This document shows positions 32,750 through 55,541 of a stretch of 64,000 nt of DNA, one piece after another. Position numbers and translations under genes: made by a program. The notes under the pieces were generated by a model. The model made no database searches, was not told the DNA's origin, and saw nothing but the letters and a program-made list of their open reading frames with translations. Numbering within the stretch: position 1 is the stretch's first letter; each line of letters starts with the position of its first letter. Location: positions 15,790-79,789 of the forward strand of contig JAILOV010000063.1 in NCBI GenBank assembly GCA_024690605.1, in the 5' to 3' direction. The DNA is from Lachnospiraceae bacterium (GTDB lineage: Bacteria; Bacillota; Clostridia; Lachnospirales; Lachnospiraceae).

Positions 32750-33853
32750 TCAATCCTCATCCTGTATGCGGACGATCCGGTGTCCGCACGCCTTCTCCAG
32801 CCGGTTGTTGATCGCCCGATAGAGGCCGCCCTCACCGAAACGTTCCGACCAGATCTCCTCCATGTTCTCCGCATCGCACTGCCTGAGCACATCAAACAGC
32901 ACCCTTGCCACGGATGCGGGATCCTCCCTGCTGCCGACGATATGAAGACGGATCCGCGGATCATAGGATGCCGCCGTTTCTTCACTCACCAGAGCGGCGA
33001 CCCTTCGCCCCTCCGCGAGCTGTTTTTCCGCTTCCGCGTTGATGTAGCGCACGACAGCGGCGGCTTCGCCCTCGACCATCGTCATGTGTCCCTTCGGTGC
33101 ATAATGCCGGTATCGCATCCCCGGTGCTTTTGGCCTGAGTCCCGCATGCTGCGCATCTTTTTCCGGTGGTTCCGCCGCGTCCGCGAGGATCGCGGGATCC
33201 GTCCGGACCTCTCCCAGCACACCGGCGAGCATTTCCTCCGTGACATAACCCGGTCGCAGGATCATCGGCCGCTCTCCGGTGAGATCGATGATGCTCGATT
33301 CCACGCCGATCCCCACTTCACCGCCGTCAATGATCATATTGACCCGACCGGTCAAATCCTCGATACAGTGAGACGCTTTCGTCGGAGACGGTCTCCCGGA
33401 GACATTGGCACTCGGCGCTGCCACAAAACCGCCGGCCGCCAGGATCAGCGCCTGCGCGACCGGATGCGACGGAAAACGCACCGCCACCGTGTCCAGACCG
33501 CCTGTTGTAGCCGCCGGCACGTCGGGCTGTTTCTTCAGGATCATGGTGAGCGGTCCCGGCCAGAAATGCTCCGCCAACACCTGTGCTGCCGGCGGGATCT
33601 GTGAAGCGACCAGATCCAGGTCCTCCATGCGGGCGATATGCACGATCAGGGGATTGTCCGAGGGACGTCCCTTTGCCGCGTAGATCCTGGCGGATGCTTC
33701 CGCGTCAAACGCATTTCCGCCCAGGCCATAGACGGTCTCCGTCGGAAAGGCGACCAGTCCGCCGTGTCTGAGAACAGCGCCGGCCCGCTCGATCACGGAG
33801 CGCGCTGCATCATCGGACAGATGCGACGGATCGATTTTGACTACTTCGGTCAT
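32750..33853 (-). CDS. sua5: L-threonylcarbamoyladenylate synthase (Sua5/YwlC)
   Basis: VAFPTETVYGLG, AKGRPSDNPLIVH, APSANVSGRPSPT, PGMRYRHYAP. Confidence 0.95.
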   Translation of the reverse strand: MTEVVKIDPSHLSDDAARSVIERAGAVLRHGGLVAFPTETVYGLGGNAFDAEASARIYAAKGRPSDNPLIVHIARMEDLDLVASQIPPAAQVLAEHFWPGPLTMILKKQPDVPAATTGGLDTVAVRFPSHPVAQALILAAGGFVAAPSANVSGRPSPTKASHCIEDLTGRVNMIIDGGEVGIGVESSIIDLTGERPMILRPGYVTEEMLAGVLGEVRTDPAILADAAEPPEKDAQHAGLRPKAPGMRYRHYAPKGHMTMVEGEAAAVVRYINAEAEKQLAEGRRVAALVSEETAASYDPRIRLHIVGSREDPASVARVLFDVLRQCDAENMEEIWSERFGEGGLYRAINNRLEKACGHRIVRIQDED

Positions 33854-35580
33854 TAACTGTTCAGCGCCTTGGAGATCACATCCCAGATATCCGGCGTCTC
33901 GAAACCGAGCTGCCAGGCCGCGACACCGGCCACATGATAGGTGCGCATGACGTTGATCTTGGTCCGGATGGATTCCGCGTCCTCAACCCAGACCTGGCGC
34001 AGCGTCCCGTCACTGTCCGTGATCTCTCCGTAATTCTGACAGGTCTCATCGTCCCAGGCAAGGGTCACGTCGCGCTGCGTGACCCAGTCTCCGACCGCGG
34101 ACATCGTCAGCGCGTCCGAATCGACCTCTCCGTTTTTGCTCGCCCAAACACGCGTATAGAACGGGATCCCGCCGATGATCTTCTCCCCCGGAACCTCGGC
34201 CGCCGTGCGCCGGATGCCGTCCTCCACAAAGCCGATCGAAGCGACACTTCCGGCCTCATCGCTGCCCCGGTAGTGCTCGTCATAGGCCATCACGACCACA
34301 TAGTCGGCGACGACGCCCTGTTCCGCGCGGTCATAGTAGTCATTGAGACTGCCCATCGGCACATAGTTATCGACAGAAAGAACGATTCCCTTTTCCCTGC
34401 AGGGGATGGAGAGTTCCCGGATCCACTGGATAAAATCCTCGCCCGAGGAGGAAGGGACCTGCTCAAAATCGACATTGATGCCGTCCAGTCCCACCGACGC
34501 CGCCTCTTCCATCAGCGCGTCGGTCAGTTTCTTTCTGGATGACGCACGGGAGAGTGTCGAAGCCGTGTCGGCGCCTTCATTGTTGAAATTGTCCACCACC
34601 CCCCAGACTTCGAGTCCCTTTTCATGCGCCTTTTTCACATAGGATGCGGAAGCGAAGCTTTCGATCCCACCCGCACCGTCGCTGAGAGCAAACCAGGTGG
34701 GCGCGATCGTGTTGAGTCCGTCCGTCTCCCCGGCATTGGTCGCCGCGACAAGCGCGTCCATCGTGTCGTTGCCGGCGGCGCTGTATACGGCATGCCAGGC
34801 CATATCGATCTGATAGGGCTTCTGAATGGAGGTGTAGGTCATCTCTCTGGATTCCGGGGCGATCGCTTCGAGCTTCATCGTCTCGGAGAGACGTTTGTTC
34901 TCCACATAGCCGATGAAGGCGTCATCCGAACGAACTTTGGTCCAGTTCTCCATCTTTTCCAGCACGACCACCTTGTCGCCCTTTTTCAGATCCCGCAGGA
35001 TCTCACTCTTCACACCGCCGAGAATGCGCAGCTCCGTATTCTTCGTGACCGTTGCCTGATCAAATGAACTCCAGGCCGTCGACATGCGGATGCGGGCGGG
35101 CTCGGAGCCTCCGCCGTACAGATCCCAGGTGAAATCGGCAAACCGCTCCACATAGTCCAGAAGGATCCAGAGATCCTCCCCTCTGACCAGCGCGATCGGA
35201 TGCTCCATCGAACCGCTGTCGCCGTCTGTGGAGCTCCAGCTGCTGCTGCCGATCTCTGCCCTGATCACGTCCGTCGGCGTGGTGTAGAGCAGTTCATTGT
35301 CCGCTTTTCCGAAATAAAACCTGCCGGTCAGCAGGGTGTCCACATCCTCCGCGGCAAGATAGCAGCCGCCGTCGATCAGTGCGGCCTTCACATCGATCCA
35401 TTCGTCATTTAACAGGATGGCGGCCTCGTCAGCGCCGGACACGCCGAAATATTCCTTAAGGTCCGCCCGTTCCTTACTGTAGGAGTATCTTTCAAAGGTT
35501 TTTCCGCCCAGATAGATCCCGCCGATCAAAAGGATCAGGACGACCGCCACGATCACGGGAATGATCTTCTTCATCCGCAT
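33853..35580 (-). CDS. GH18 family hydrolase with SH3 domain (SleL/YaaH-like)
   Basis: N-terminal TM, SH3-like segment (NWTKVRSDDAFIGYV), LDGINVDFE, VMAYDEH, GVAAWQLG. Confidence 0.85.
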   Translation of the reverse strand: MRMKKIIPVIVAVVLILLIGGIYLGGKTFERYSYSKERADLKEYFGVSGADEAAILLNDEWIDVKAALIDGGCYLAAEDVDTLLTGRFYFGKADNELLYTTPTDVIRAEIGSSSWSSTDGDSGSMEHPIALVRGEDLWILLDYVERFADFTWDLYGGGSEPARIRMSTAWSSFDQATVTKNTELRILGGVKSEILRDLKKGDKVVVLEKMENWTKVRSDDAFIGYVENKRLSETMKLEAIAPESREMTYTSIQKPYQIDMAWHAVYSAAGNDTMDALVAATNAGETDGLNTIAPTWFALSDGAGGIESFASASYVKKAHEKGLEVWGVVDNFNNEGADTASTLSRASSRKKLTDALMEEAASVGLDGINVDFEQVPSSSGEDFIQWIRELSIPCREKGIVLSVDNYVPMGSLNDYYDRAEQGVVADYVVVMAYDEHYRGSDEAGSVASIGFVEDGIRRTAAEVPGEKIIGGIPFYTRVWASKNGEVDSDALTMSAVGDWVTQRDVTLAWDDETCQNYGEITDSDGTLRQVWVEDAESIRTKINVMRTYHVAGVAAWQLGFETPDIWDVISKALNS

Positions 35581-35640
35581 GCTCCTTTCCAATGTCCATC
35601 ATTATAACATAATTCCCCGATTATTTCATGCAAACGCAAA

Positions 35641-35665
35641 CAGGCGGCCCTGTGAAAGCCGCCTG
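35641..35665 (-). terminator. Orphan Rho-independent terminator
   Basis: caggcggc-N9-gccgcctg perfect 8-bp stem followed on the minus strand by TTTGCGTTTG. Confidence 0.55.
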
Positions 35666-35935
35666 CCGCTTTTTGATCCGGTGGTCGTGCTGTCTTCGGC
35701 GCCGATGGGTTCCGCACCTGAGACTCGTGACTGATCCTGACACGCACACAAAGCCAGCCAAAAGCGGTTCCTTTCCGTGAAAACACCCGAGGCTTTATGC
35801 AGTGACACACCTGATCCTGTGAAATAACTCCGGCCGCATCAGGCGCCATGGCGCCATGGTTTACATGATCATCTGAATACGGATAGTTTCATATTGGTTT
35901 GGGGATTTAGGTTACGCGTATCGCGTAAGAAAGGA

Positions 35936-35965
35936 TTGACAGAACTGTCAGATCCCTGTTATCAT
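35936..35965 (+). promoter_or_regulatory. sigma-A-like promoter overlapped by a palindrome
   Basis: TTGACA(35936)-18 bp-TATCAT with TG extension; tgacag-aa-ctgtca inverted repeat over the -35. Confidence 0.45.
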
Positions 35966-36024
35966 CTTCGGCTGCGGTCACCCCCTTTCGGATGCCGGAT
36001 CGCCGGAGATATTTCACGCTCCCT

Positions 36025-36053
36025 TTATAGCACACGCCCCTGCGGGGAGCAAG
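36025..36053 (-). promoter_or_regulatory. sigma-A-like promoter facing the non-coding intergenic region
   Basis: Minus strand TTGCTC-17 bp-TATAAA with TG extension. Confidence 0.45.
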
Positions 36054-36117
36054 AAAAAACGGCAGATTTCCGAAAATATGGCAGATTGCACAAAAGCCTG
36101 CTCCGATTTCAGGTATA

Positions 36118-36146: not shown

Positions 36147-36188
36147 CAAATTGCACAAAAAAACCCCGAAAAACGGAGTGCATTTTCT

Positions 36189-36989
36189 ATGAAGATCGAA
36201 AGACTGAATGATCGCCAGATCCGTTGTACCCTCACGCGCGAGGATCTCTCGCAGCGAGGGCTGCGGCTGAGCGAATTCGCATACGGAACAAAAAAAGCGC
36301 GCTCCCTGTTCCAGGACATGATGGAGCAGGCGCGGTTTGAGGTCGGTTTCGAAGCGGAGGACTATCCGCTGATGATCGAGGCCGTTCCGATGGGTGCGGA
36401 ATGCCTCGTGCTCATCGTCACGCAGGTGGATGACCCGGAAGAACTCGACACGCGCTTTTCCGTCTTCGGTCCGTCCGTCGACGAAGCCGATGAAGATGAC
36501 GGATCCTATGAGTATGAGGATCGTGACCCCGAGGAGGAGAACGGTTTTTATCGCATGCTGCAGGGACTGCAGGAAGGCCCGGATTTCTCCGGCATCCCCG
36601 AGCAGTTCGCCGCGCGCCTCAATCCCGGCGGCATCCGTCAGGCGTCTGCCAGACAGCACCTGCCGAAACCCGTTGAAGAAAAAGCAAAGCCCGTGGTGCG
36701 CATCTACTCCTTTTCATCTCTCCATGAGGTGCAGCACGCCGCAGCCGCGGTCTCGGGAAATCTCCTGAACATCAGAAACACGCTCTACCGCGACGGAGAT
36801 CGGCATTTCTATCTGTGCCTGCATCAGAAGAAGACAAAGAAAAAGGATCACTCCTTCCTCTCTCTGTGCGCGCTCCTTGCGGAGTACGGTGCGGCGGCCG
36901 CCACCGGCTTCCTCTCCGAGGAATTTCTGAAGGAGCACTGCGAGGTGGTCATCCGCGACCAGGCTCTGCAGAAGCTGGCTCTTCTCTGA
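36189..36989 (+). CDS. mecA: ClpC adaptor protein MecA
   Basis: MKIERLNDRQIRCTLTREDL, LFQDMMEQA...GFEAEDYPLMIEAVP; C-terminal YSFSSL...LAEYG. Confidence 0.88.
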   Translation: MKIERLNDRQIRCTLTREDLSQRGLRLSEFAYGTKKARSLFQDMMEQARFEVGFEAEDYPLMIEAVPMGAECLVLIVTQVDDPEELDTRFSVFGPSVDEADEDDGSYEYEDRDPEEENGFYRMLQGLQEGPDFSGIPEQFAARLNPGGIRQASARQHLPKPVEEKAKPVVRIYSFSSLHEVQHAAAAVSGNLLNIRNTLYRDGDRHFYLCLHQKKTKKKDHSFLSLCALLAEYGAAAATGFLSEEFLKEHCEVVIRDQALQKLALL

Positions 36990-55469: not shown

Positions 55470-55541
55470 AGGTGCGGGACGGATTTGAACCGACGCATCA
55501 GGGAGTTGCAGTCCCACGCCTTACCACTTGGCTACCGCACC
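55470..55541 (-). tRNA. tRNA-Cys(GCA), CCA not encoded
   Basis: ggtgcgg acceptor stem, D-loop agccaagtggtaaggc, anticodon loop ctGCAac, T-loop ggttcaaatcc, U discriminator. Confidence 0.95.

What the first reader, a model, noticed from the sequence alone, without database searches (positions are those of the whole stretch)
35641..36053. Promoter-to-terminator unit of ~370 nt with no convincing ORF: candidate novel ncRNA between GH18 and mecA
Seen: a minus-strand TTGCTC-17-TATAAA promoter (36053-36025) and an orphan terminator (35665-35641) bracket sequence that no upstream minus-strand gene could supply (mecA is divergent; GH18 has its own TGtTATAAT downstream of the terminator). The 3' ~150 nt is structured: closing stem gatc-ggtg-tgtc / gaca-cacc-gatc, an inner ~14-bp helix cac-gcat-aaagcc / ggcttt-gtgc-gtg, and a 9-nt direct repeat ctgatcctg (35731, 35811). 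It lacks tmRNA, RNase P and SRP signatures. Inference: an unannotated structured RNA.
Basis: partly seen in the sequence, partly recalled or inferred. Interest (0 to 1): 0.62.

Follow-up and report, generated by a model that had tools for sequence, protein, structure and literature searches.

The report
New structured RNA beside mecA
A roughly 380-base RNA with its own promoter and terminator lies in front of a cell-wall-type hydrolase gene. Its long helices co-vary across the rumen genus Butyrivibrio and related Lachnospiraceae, it matches no described RNA family, and it is most likely a regulatory leader that here has lost the small gene it precedes in other genera.

Summary
On the minus strand, an extended -10 promoter (TTGCTC-17-TGcTATAAA, 36052-36024) is followed by about 385 nt with no conserved ORF. 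An intrinsic terminator hairpin ends the unit at 35665-35641. It lies between the divergent mecA and a TM-SH3-GH18 gene that has its own TGtTATAAT promoter.

The RNA is real and conserved. All 30 Butyrivibrio loci I inspected keep a homologous element at this place. A 51-nt model finds exactly one copy, next to mecA, in 58 of 88 genus genomes. Two long-range helices, P1 and P2, close a domain of about 190 nt. They are 90.7% paired (at most 46% when partners are slid), and 11 of 16 pairs show compensatory changes.

A second module is a variable closing helix (P6) around a conserved UCAC...CUUUUGG core. In other Lachnospiraceae genera this module sits directly before the ribosome-binding site of a small uncharacterised ORF. 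That ORF is absent from this genome.

Rfam 15 gives no match for the window or for 20 relatives.

My best reading, at moderate confidence, is a new cis-acting leader-type RNA family. A stand-alone RNA is the main rival.

The parts
36024..36052 (-). Promoter of the RNA: -35 TTGCTC (36052-36047), 17-nt spacer ending in TGc (36033-36031), -10 TATAAA (36029-36024). The inferred start is near G36017.
   Evidence: Sequence. An extended -10 stands at the same distance from the GUGAG start in 27 of 30 genus loci, with near-matches in the other 3. It is conserved in G017.
36002..36017 (-). P1 5' strand GUGAAAUAUCUCCGGC. It pairs with 35834-35819.
   Evidence: Ten homologous pairs are 93.3% paired in 30 sequences, and 7 of the 10 show compensatory changes. 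The helix appears in the MFE of the window and its relatives.
35991..35995 (-). P2 5' strand GCAUC. It pairs with GAUGC at 35840-35836.
   Evidence: Observed covariation: GCAUC/GAUGC, GCGUC/GACGC, GGCGC/GCGCU, AAUCC/GGAUU, AAGUCC/GGACUU, AGCCC/GGGUU. This helix is 86% paired, and 4 of 6 pairs have changes on both sides.
35978..35989 (-). Shine-Dalgarno-like strand GAAAGGGGGUGA in the junction after P2. It is the most conserved block of the RNA and is not followed by a conserved start codon.
   Evidence: The GG.GG core is invariant in 30 sequences. Predicted duplex with the canonical 16S 3' end is -20.6 kcal/mol. No ORF is conserved.
35842..35957 (-). Interior of the 5' domain. It contains hairpin 35957-35931, hairpin UUACGCG/CGCGUAA 35928-35912, the conserved AAUCCCC (35907-35901), an A/C-rich linker, and hairpins 35894-35863 and 35855-35842.
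   Evidence: Constrained and free MFE folds. Hairpins occur at equivalent places with other sequences in relatives, and the UCCCC block is conserved.
35836..35840 (-). P2 3' strand GAUGC.
35819..35834 (-). P1 3' strand GCCGGAGUUAUUUCAC.
35741..35804 (-). 3' module. P6 is the closing helix (35800-35791 with 35755-35746, extended by CAC/GUG). It encloses the conserved core GGUGUUUUCACGGAAAGGAACC and CUUUUGG (35764-35758).
   Evidence: A P6-type helix of 6-12 contiguous pairs, with a different sequence each time, was found in all 21 sequences listed before the script stopped. Duplex energy beats shuffles at p<=0.05 in 13 of 28. The same module lies before the small ORF's ribosome-binding site in other genera.
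35728..35739 (-). Conserved joining strand CAGGAUCAGUCA. It corresponds to AACAAUCAA in low-GC Butyrivibrio.
35698..35718 (-). P9 hairpin GGUGC...GCGCC with the conserved loop GGAACCCAUCG. In low-GC relatives the loop is ACCCCG, closed by AUGG/CCAU or GAGG/CCUC.
   Evidence: It is 72.5% paired against at most 57.5% when partners are slid, and 3 of 4 pairs have changes on both sides.
35675..35694 (-). Lineage-specific 3' strand of the outer closing stem. In the fold, 35686-35675 pairs with 35816-35804. It is the first part of a ~60-nt stretch that the closest relative lacks.
   Evidence: MFE folds. This stretch is a gap in G017.
35632..35669 (-). Intrinsic terminator. The stem is 35665-35655 with 35651-41, extended by GCGG/UUGC, and the U tract UUUGCGUUU lies at 35640-35632.
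   Evidence: (-23.7 kcal/mol). Absent from G017, L006, L007 and L008. An unrelated terminator is present in L010.
35601..35629 (-). Separate promoter of the GH18-like gene: ATGAAA-17-TGtTATAAT. It is not part of the RNA but defines its downstream boundary.
   Evidence: The site (ATGACG-type -35 plus TGnTATAAT) is conserved across the genus and in other genera.

Best explanation
This is the ORF-less version of a previously undescribed leader-type RNA family of Lachnospiraceae.

Shown:
- The RNA gene has its own conserved extended -10 promoter.
- It has a 5' domain of about 190 nt, closed by two co-varying long-range helices (P1, P2). An invariant Shine-Dalgarno-like strand lies in the junction.
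- It has a second module: a closing helix of variable sequence (P6) around a conserved UCAC...CUUUUGG core, followed by a small hairpin (P9).
- It is single-copy. It always points towards, and lies directly upstream of, the TM-SH3-GH18 gene (followed by Sua5/tsaC).
- In several other genera the P6 module directly abuts the ribosome-binding site of a 65-85-aa ORF of unknown function.

Inferred:
- The RNA acts in cis.
- The 5' SD-like strand recruits a 30S subunit, or otherwise shields the 5' end, so that the long transcript is stabilised. This would resemble STAB-SD of cry3A or the hbs leader.
- The P6 module is a sensor, for a ligand or a protein, whose pyrimidine strand CUUUUGG/CCUUCC can either be held inside the fold or pair with a purine-rich SD.
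- In most Butyrivibrio species, transcription from this promoter runs on into the GH18 gene. That would produce a long-leader mRNA isoform beside the short one from the proximal promoter.
- In this genome a lineage-specific terminator ends most transcripts at about 35632. The element would then be made as a discrete RNA of about 385 nt, and only read-through would reach GH18-tsaC.
For: - P1+P2: 90.7% of cells are paired against at most 45.8% with slid partners. 11 of 16 pairs show compensatory changes, and 0 of 500 shuffles reach the observed values.
- The promoter is conserved in 30 genus loci.
- 58 of 88 genus genomes have exactly one match to a 51-nt model, each beside mecA. The divergent mecA/GH18 arrangement, with a 503-772-nt spacer, holds in 30 of 30 loci.
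- The element is single-copy in its own genome.
- The minus strand folds with z -3.67; the plus strand with z -1.16.
- The same architecture appears in other genera: a 5' closing helix of 12-19 pairs, UCCCC, CGUCA, P6 and UAUCAC...CCUUUUGG (L120, L124, L128, L136, L146).
- In L128, L151, L152 and L158 the 3' strand of P6 is followed within 5-20 nt by the SD of the small ORF.
- No intrinsic terminator is evident between the RNA and the GH18 promoter in most genus loci. Only the window and L010 have a clear one.
- The SD-like strand pairs with the canonical anti-SD at -20.6 kcal/mol and with the CUUUUGG strand at -13.4 kcal/mol.
- Ribosome binding at a strong SD is known to protect Bacillus mRNAs from RNase J1 (PMC5737220; STAB-SD is mentioned in PMC7509114).
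Against: - There is no transcript evidence.
- The GH18 gene has its own strong promoter between the RNA and its start, and this promoter is conserved family-wide. The gene therefore does not need the upstream promoter.
- The small ORF that the P6 module precedes elsewhere is absent from this genome, yet the RNA stays conserved. A pure leader of that ORF would not be expected to do so.
- No conserved terminator/antiterminator pair or SD-sequestering helix towards GH18 was found in the genus.
- This genome and L010 each have a terminator after the RNA, and the two terminators are unrelated. That looks like selection for a discrete RNA.
- The two complementary conserved strands are invariant, so their pairing cannot be tested by covariation.
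- The folds of the core (P7) and of the 5'-domain interior remain ambiguous.
Confidence: 0.42

Rival explanations
1. It is a stand-alone, trans-acting or protein-scaffolding ncRNA gene that is merely syntenic with mecA and the GH18 gene. It would be made from its own promoter and ended by the terminator here, or by processing or Rho elsewhere. It would work away from its locus, for example by titrating a protein or the ribosome through its SD-like strand, or by pairing with mRNAs through CUUUUGG/UCCCC.
For: - It has its own conserved promoter, and in this genome its own terminator.
- A separate, family-wide conserved promoter for GH18 lies downstream.
- The RNA is conserved although the small ORF is absent.
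- The co-varying architecture is large, 340-460 nt, well above the usual size of riboswitch aptamers.
- Two lineages independently gained terminators.
- In other genera the 5' domain alternates with a kinase-like plus P-loop gene pair, as if it replaced a trans-acting function.
Against: - There is no clear terminator in most genus loci.
- Co-orientation and adjacency with the small ORF/GH18 are strict in every genus seen.
- The P6 module abuts a ribosome-binding site in other genera.
- No candidate target or partner was identified.
Confidence: 0.3
2. Only the SD-like strand and the 5' helices matter. On this reading the element is a 5' mRNA stabiliser and processing platform for a long GH18-tsaC mRNA isoform, with no sensing function.
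For: - The SD-like strand is invariant, lies about 30-40 nt from the inferred 5' end, and has no start codon.
- There are precedents in Firmicutes (PMC5737220, PMC7509114; the cwlO leader is from my own knowledge).
- Read-through is expected in most species.
Against: - A stabiliser would not need about 350 nt of co-varying multi-helix structure, nor the separately conserved P6 core.
- The terminator in this genome would defeat the purpose.
Confidence: 0.12
3. The region is a decaying remnant (of the small ORF, or of the kinase/P-loop genes seen in other genera) or a chance promoter-terminator pair, and has no function as RNA. Alternatively, the functional strand is the plus strand, as a long mecA leader from the TTGACA-18-TGtTATCAT site at 35936-35965.
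For: - Other genera carry genes where the 5' domain lies here.
- There is a strong plus-strand promoter-like site inside the element.
Against: - Compensatory changes keep P1/P2 paired across 30 species.
- Promoter position and orientation are conserved.
- The plus strand does not fold better than shuffles.
- The plus-strand promoter-like site lies in a hairpin whose sequence is not conserved in relatives.
- No ORF or protein similarity is conserved on either strand.
Confidence: 0.06

Closest known systems
Riboswitch- or protein-binding-type 5' leaders of Firmicutes, for example the ydaO/c-di-AMP riboswitch upstream of cell-wall hydrolase genes, and T-box leaders
   Same: It is a conserved, co-varying structure in the same orientation directly upstream of a gene. 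In other genera the 3' module abuts a ribosome-binding site and carries an anti-SD-like pyrimidine strand. The downstream gene is a cell-envelope hydrolase type (SH3 plus GH18).
   Different: There is no sequence or structure match to any Rfam 15 family, even at E<=5-10. It is much larger (340-460 nt; over 600 nt in one genus). A separate promoter lies between it and the GH18 gene. No conserved expression platform was found in this genus, and no ligand is known.
STAB-SD / ribosome-protected 5' leaders (B. thuringiensis cry3A, B. subtilis hbs)
   Same: A near-perfect Shine-Dalgarno sequence without a start codon lies near the 5' end of a long untranslated RNA.
   Different: Here the SD-like strand is embedded in the junction of a large conserved fold. 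A complementary conserved strand lies about 220 nt downstream. Stabilisation is untested.
Large structured bacterial ncRNAs of unknown function (raiA, ROOL, GOLLD, OLE, HEARO)
   Same: It is a long, multi-helix RNA found by comparative analysis, restricted to a clade, and of unknown biochemical function.
   Different: There is no homology by Rfam. It is strictly single-copy at one chromosomal locus tied to one downstream gene, and it is not associated with phages or mobile elements.

Membership tests
Any Rfam 15 family (including ydaO-yuaA, T-box, c-di-GMP-I/II, 6S, RNase P, tmRNA, SRP, raiA, ROOL, GOLLD, OLE, HEARO) | Score at or above the family's gathering threshold with its covariance model | tested here: not met
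   The window gives only a tRNA, at 55470. At E<=10 the IGR gives only noise of 12-20 bits, from snoRNA and miRNA models. Nine genus loci and nine loci of other genera give nothing. L017 and L128 at E<=5 give only noise.
Cis-regulatory leader / riboswitch (generic kind) | Conserved structured element in the 5' region of, and co-oriented with, the regulated gene | tested here: met
   30 of 30 genus loci, and the loci of other genera. Covariation.
Cis-regulatory leader / riboswitch (generic kind) | Conserved expression platform (terminator/antiterminator or SD sequestration) coupled to the aptamer | tested here: inconclusive
   A clear terminator is present only in the window and L010, and the two are unrelated in sequence. 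In other genera the 3' strand of P6 is followed by the small ORF's SD, and the core carries CCUU(U/C). No alternative pairing could be tested by covariation.
Cis-regulatory leader / riboswitch (generic kind) | Specific ligand or protein binding that changes the fold | not testable with these tools
   This needs in-line probing or binding assays.
STAB-SD-type 5' stabiliser | Strong SD-like sequence in the 5' untranslated region with no start codon at initiation distance | tested here: met
   GAAAGGGGGUGA lies at 35989-35978, and the GG.GG core is invariant in 30 sequences. Duplex with the canonical anti-SD is -20.6 kcal/mol. There is no conserved start codon or ORF. The 16S 3' end was not found in this assembly, so the canonical sequence was used.
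STAB-SD-type 5' stabiliser | 30S binding that prolongs the half-life of the downstream RNA | not testable with these tools
   This needs toeprinting and rifampicin chase experiments.
Independent small RNA gene | Own promoter and own terminator that delimit a discrete transcript, conserved across relatives | tested here: inconclusive
   The promoter is conserved. A clear terminator is present here and in L010 only. No transcript data exist.
Small protein gene | ORF conserved in frame across relatives | tested here: not met
   The window's ORFs give only short local matches that reflect nucleotide identity. The small-ORF family of other genera is absent from the whole genome.

The most novel reading that the evidence does not exclude
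It is a new class of large two-module regulatory RNA in rumen and gut Lachnospiraceae. A ligand- or ribosome-sensing core (P6/UCAC/CUUUUGG) would control a peptidoglycan-hydrolase module. A co-varying 5' domain of about 200 nt, carrying an SD mimic, would have taken the place that a Ser/Thr-kinase-like plus P-loop gene pair occupies in other genera. In short, an RNA domain would substitute for protein regulators.
Probability: 0.15. Interest if true: 0.8.

Novelty: new variant of a known kind. Interest (0 to 1): 0.6.

Why it matters
If confirmed, this adds a well-supported, undescribed structured RNA family. It is genus-wide in Butyrivibrio and recognisable in at least five other Lachnospiraceae genera. 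These are important fibre-degrading rumen and gut bacteria for which almost no RNA biology is known.

The element is tied to a conserved envelope-hydrolase locus. It carries an unusual invariant Shine-Dalgarno mimic with a complementary partner strand. It also shows a clear evolutionary series: kinase plus P-loop plus small ORF; then RNA plus small ORF; then RNA alone. That series could show how leader RNAs arise and outlive their original cargo.

Cultured strains carry the element (B. proteoclasticus, Butyrivibrio sp. INlla14, YAB3001, CB08), so it can be tested directly.

Tried and rejected
- Rfam at gathering and permissive thresholds, on the window and on 20 relatives, gave nothing.
- blastn of the IGR against 40 relatives found only one genome. 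Homology in the rest of the genus emerged only through mecA/GH18 synteny.
- Pattern scans with CGGCRYCNGARAGGRGGTGAC were run on 185,579 species genomes and on JGI metagenomes. They returned 36 and 39 hits, of which only 5 and 3 were real. All real hits came from the same high-GC sub-clade; the rest were chance SD-like strings.
- The sequence-only model R1, run over 400 genera of the family, gave hits above noise only in the window's own genus. Eight marginal hits were not near mecA or GH18.
- A local hairpin CAUCC-GAAAGG-GGGUG, which I first took for P2, is rejected. It is not kept in low-GC species, whereas the long-range GCAUC/GAUGC helix co-varies.
- Pairing of the SD-like strand with UCCCC appears in the constrained fold. 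GGAGG variants are not compensated in relatives, so this is left open.
- An antiterminator between 35849-35835 and the terminator's 5' arm is possible in the window but absent in L010, so I do not claim it.
- A covariance model or RNAalifold consensus for P6 failed, because MAFFT cannot align the hypervariable strands. P6 therefore rests on per-sequence helices and shuffling.
- Conserved ORFs on either strand: none.
- The small ORF of other genera has no Pfam family and only hypothetical-protein relatives.
- Text search of the Breaker/Weinberg discovery papers and of the human-microbiome survey found no mention of a mecA, GH18 or Lachnospiraceae motif. Their supplementary motif lists could not be compared by sequence.
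- Earlier notes of this scan hold nothing on this stretch.

Full report
**What is at the coordinates.**
The 596-bp spacer lies between a minus-strand gene and the plus-strand mecA. The minus-strand gene (33853-35592) encodes a protein with an N-terminal membrane helix, SH3_3 and Glyco_hydro_18; the next gene downstream is Sua5/tsaC. The plus-strand gene (36189-36989) is a full-length Pfam MecA.

On the minus strand I read TTGCTC (36052-36047), a 17-nt spacer ending in TGc, and TATAAA (36029-36024). About 385 nt without a convincing ORF follow. Next comes a hairpin, CAGGCGGC...GCCGCCUG (35665-35641), with UUUGCGUUUGC after it. Finally there is the GH18 gene's own ATGAAA-17-TGtTATAAT (35629-35601).

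The minus strand of 35636-36020 folds at -144.1 kcal/mol, with z -3.67 against dinucleotide shuffles. The plus strand gives z -1.16. The stretch is single-copy in the 2.76-Mb assembly.

**Not a known family, not coding.**
Rfam 15 gives nothing at gathering thresholds for the window. At E<=10 the spacer gives only 12-20-bit noise. The same holds for 9 loci of the genus, 9 loci of other genera, and two permissive scans of relatives.

None of the window's small ORFs on either strand is conserved beyond what nucleotide identity explains.

**Homologues.**
blastn found the spacer in only one of 40 relatives, G017. There the promoter, the first ~50 nt and several later blocks are conserved, and a long-range pairing changes from GUGAAAUA/UAUUUCAC to AUGAGA/UCUCAU.

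A MecA search showed that all 88 genomes of the genus have mecA. In all 30 loci fetched, the GH18-type gene is divergent from mecA, with a spacer of 503-772 bp. By the names on its MecA relatives, the genus is Butyrivibrio. The window belongs to a high-GC sub-clade of rumen MAGs labelled Lachnospiraceae.

Five high-GC relatives share the window's sequence blocks. The low-GC majority carries a clearly homologous element. From 5' to 3' it reads: TGnTAnnAT box, UUGUGAGAUGCCUC, AUCCGGAAGGGAGGCGA, a hairpin followed by UGUCUUA, AAUCCCC, an A/C-rich linker, hairpins, GGCAUCUCA, AUACGUCAA, UUAUCAC...CCUUUUGG, AACAAUCAA, and a hairpin with the loop ACCCCG.

A 51-position sequence model of the 5' end (R1) finds exactly one match in 58 of 88 genus genomes, always beside mecA. 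The misses are the species with the most divergent MecA, and the search used the stricter filters.

Exact-pattern scans of 185,579 species genomes and of JGI metagenomes added only the same high-GC lineages.

**Structure.**
I tested two long-range helices on the purely sequence-based MAFFT alignment of the 30 RNAs (A3). In window coordinates they are P1 (36017-36002 with 35834-35819) and P2 (35995-35991 with 35840-35836).
- 90.7% of cells are standard pairs, against 25-46% when the 3' partners are slid by 1-3 columns.
- 11 of 16 pairs have changes on both sides.
- None of 500 shuffles reaches any of the five measures.

Enforcing P1+P2 in the window costs only 2.3 kcal/mol relative to the free MFE. 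The two helices close a domain of about 190 nt. Its first single strand is the invariant Shine-Dalgarno-like GAAAGGGGGUGA; in relatives it reads GGAAAGGAGGYGA.

The local hairpin I first drew around this strand is not kept in low-GC species, and I dropped it.

A helix of 6-12 contiguous pairs, different in sequence in every species, flanks the conserved UCAC...CUUUUGG core. Its energy beats shuffled flanks at p<=0.05 in 13 of 28 sequences, where about 1.4 would be expected by chance.

The terminal hairpin P9 is moderately supported. It is 72.5% paired against at most 57.5% when slid, and 3 of 4 pairs are compensatory.

However, its 3' strand, like the terminator, lies in about 60 nt that the closest relative lacks. 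It is therefore specific to this lineage.

**Terminator and read-through.**
Among the 30 genus loci, only the window and L010 have a convincing intrinsic terminator between the RNA and the GH18 promoter. Their terminators are unrelated in sequence. In most species a transcript from the RNA promoter should therefore run into the GH18 gene.

The GH18 gene also keeps its own promoter (an ATGACG-type -35 plus TGnTATAAT) throughout the genus and beyond.

**Beyond the genus.**
R1 found nothing credible in 400 other genera, but synteny did. Of 45 sampled genera of the family, 9 have the GH18-type gene within about 1.2 kb of the divergent mecA.

L120, L124, L128, L136 and L146 show the same architecture: a promoter-proximal strand pairing about 190-450 nt downstream. 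Examples are AGAUACUUCCGG/CCGGAGUAUCU in L128 and CAGGAAAGCUGC/GCAGCUUUUCUG in L124. They also have an SD-like strand, UCCCC, CGUCA, a P6-type helix and AUAUAUCAC...CCUUUUGG.

In most of these genera a 65-85-aa ORF follows P6 within 5-20 nt. Its motif is LxLNGxPxTPxxIxKAC...YMxDY..D..G.I....FD. It has no Pfam family and only hypothetical relatives. The ORF is absent from the window's genome and from the rest of the genus.

In further genera mecA and GH18 are 0.9-4.4 kb apart. There, a Ser/Thr-kinase-like gene and a ~210-aa P-loop-like gene occupy the place of the 5' domain. Even so, the P6-closed core still sits right before the small ORF's ribosome-binding site. Examples are L151 GGCCGGCAGG/CCUGCCGGUC, L152 GCCGGCAGGG/CCCUGCCGGC and L158 GGCGCU/AGCGCC.

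The 3' module is therefore the older and wider element, and it behaves like a leader of the small ORF. The 5' domain is a clade-specific addition. The window's genus keeps both modules but has lost the ORF.

**How it probably works.**
What is shown: a conserved promoter, a conserved co-varying fold, a fixed place and orientation, adjacency to a ribosome-binding site in other genera, and a terminator in this genome.

What is inferred:
- The RNA acts in cis on what lies downstream.
- The SD-like strand engages a 30S subunit and stabilises the RNA. Its predicted duplex with the canonical anti-SD is -20.6 kcal/mol. The assembly's own 16S 3' end was not found. Precedents are PMC5737220 and PMC7509114.
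- The conserved pyrimidine strand of the core (CUUUUGG/CCUUCC) switches between the fold and a purine-rich partner. That partner could be the small-ORF SD in other genera. Here it could be the internal SD-like strand (-13.4 kcal/mol) or the GH18 ribosome-binding site (-9.2 kcal/mol).

In this genome the terminator would make the RNA mostly a discrete species of about 385 nt, with read-through feeding GH18-tsaC.

I put 0.42 on this leader model. I put 0.30 on a stand-alone RNA; that reading is favoured by the separate GH18 promoter, the two independently gained terminators and survival without the ORF. I put 0.12 on a pure stabiliser and 0.06 on relic, plus-strand or chance readings.

That a real, conserved structured RNA is encoded here I hold at about 0.9.

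**Limits.**
- The fold of the 5'-domain interior and of the core (P7) is unresolved.
- P6 could not be put through the column-wise covariation tool, because its strands cannot be aligned by sequence.
- Large anonymous candidate lists, such as PMC8040213, could not be compared by sequence, so an unnamed earlier prediction of a gut relative cannot be excluded.

Noticed in passing
window 35936-35965 (+): A strong promoter-like site, TTGACA-18-TGtTATCAT (11 of 12 matches, with an extended -10), lies antisense inside the RNA gene. If active it would give mecA a ~220-nt leader overlapping the RNA's 5' part. It falls in a hairpin whose sequence is not conserved in relatives.
   Followed up: partly
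window 36085-36095 and 36150-36160 (read on the minus strand): The 11-mer TTTTGTGCAAT occurs twice in the divergent mecA/RNA promoter region. Both copies are conserved in G017 and one in L010. This is a candidate operator for a shared regulator.
   Followed up: no
L011-L034, about 20-60 nt upstream of the RNA's -10 box: Low-GC Butyrivibrio carry a near-perfect palindrome, TCTTAAGAAAT-N9/10-ATTTCTTAAGA, across the -35 region of the RNA promoter. This is a candidate repressor or activator site. It is absent from the window's high-GC sub-clade.
   Followed up: no
L120, L124, L128, L129, L136, L137, L149, L151, L152, L158 (between the RNA core and the GH18 gene): There is a conserved small protein family of 65-85 aa, with the motif LxLNGxPxTPxxIxKAC...YMxDY..D..G.I....FD. 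It has no Pfam family and only hypothetical relatives. Several copies lack an obvious ATG/GTG/TTG at the expected distance from their SD, and AUC or AUA may be the start.
   Followed up: partly
L121, L126, L127, L131, L132, L135 and L149, L151, L152, L154, L158: In other Lachnospiraceae genera the gene order is mecA, then divergently a Ser/Thr-kinase-like gene (~430 aa), a P-loop-like gene (~210 aa, with IGVxGxxxGxGxTHLSIMLA), the small ORF and GH18. This looks like a conserved envelope module of which the window keeps only GH18-tsaC.
   Followed up: partly
window 36163-36179 (-): A terminator-like hairpin, ACTCCGTTTTTCGGGGT followed by TTTTTTG, lies on the minus strand just upstream of the mecA start, inside mecA's 5' untranslated region. 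The stretch is deleted in G017.
   Followed up: no
window 35575-35600 (-) and equivalents in L006-L034, L120, L128: The short 5' untranslated region of the GH18 gene (GGAGGACGUCGGAAAGGAG here, UAGGGCGAUUGUAAAGGAGCUAGAAC in low-GC species) is almost invariant within each group. That is unusually conserved for a ~30-nt leader.
   Followed up: no
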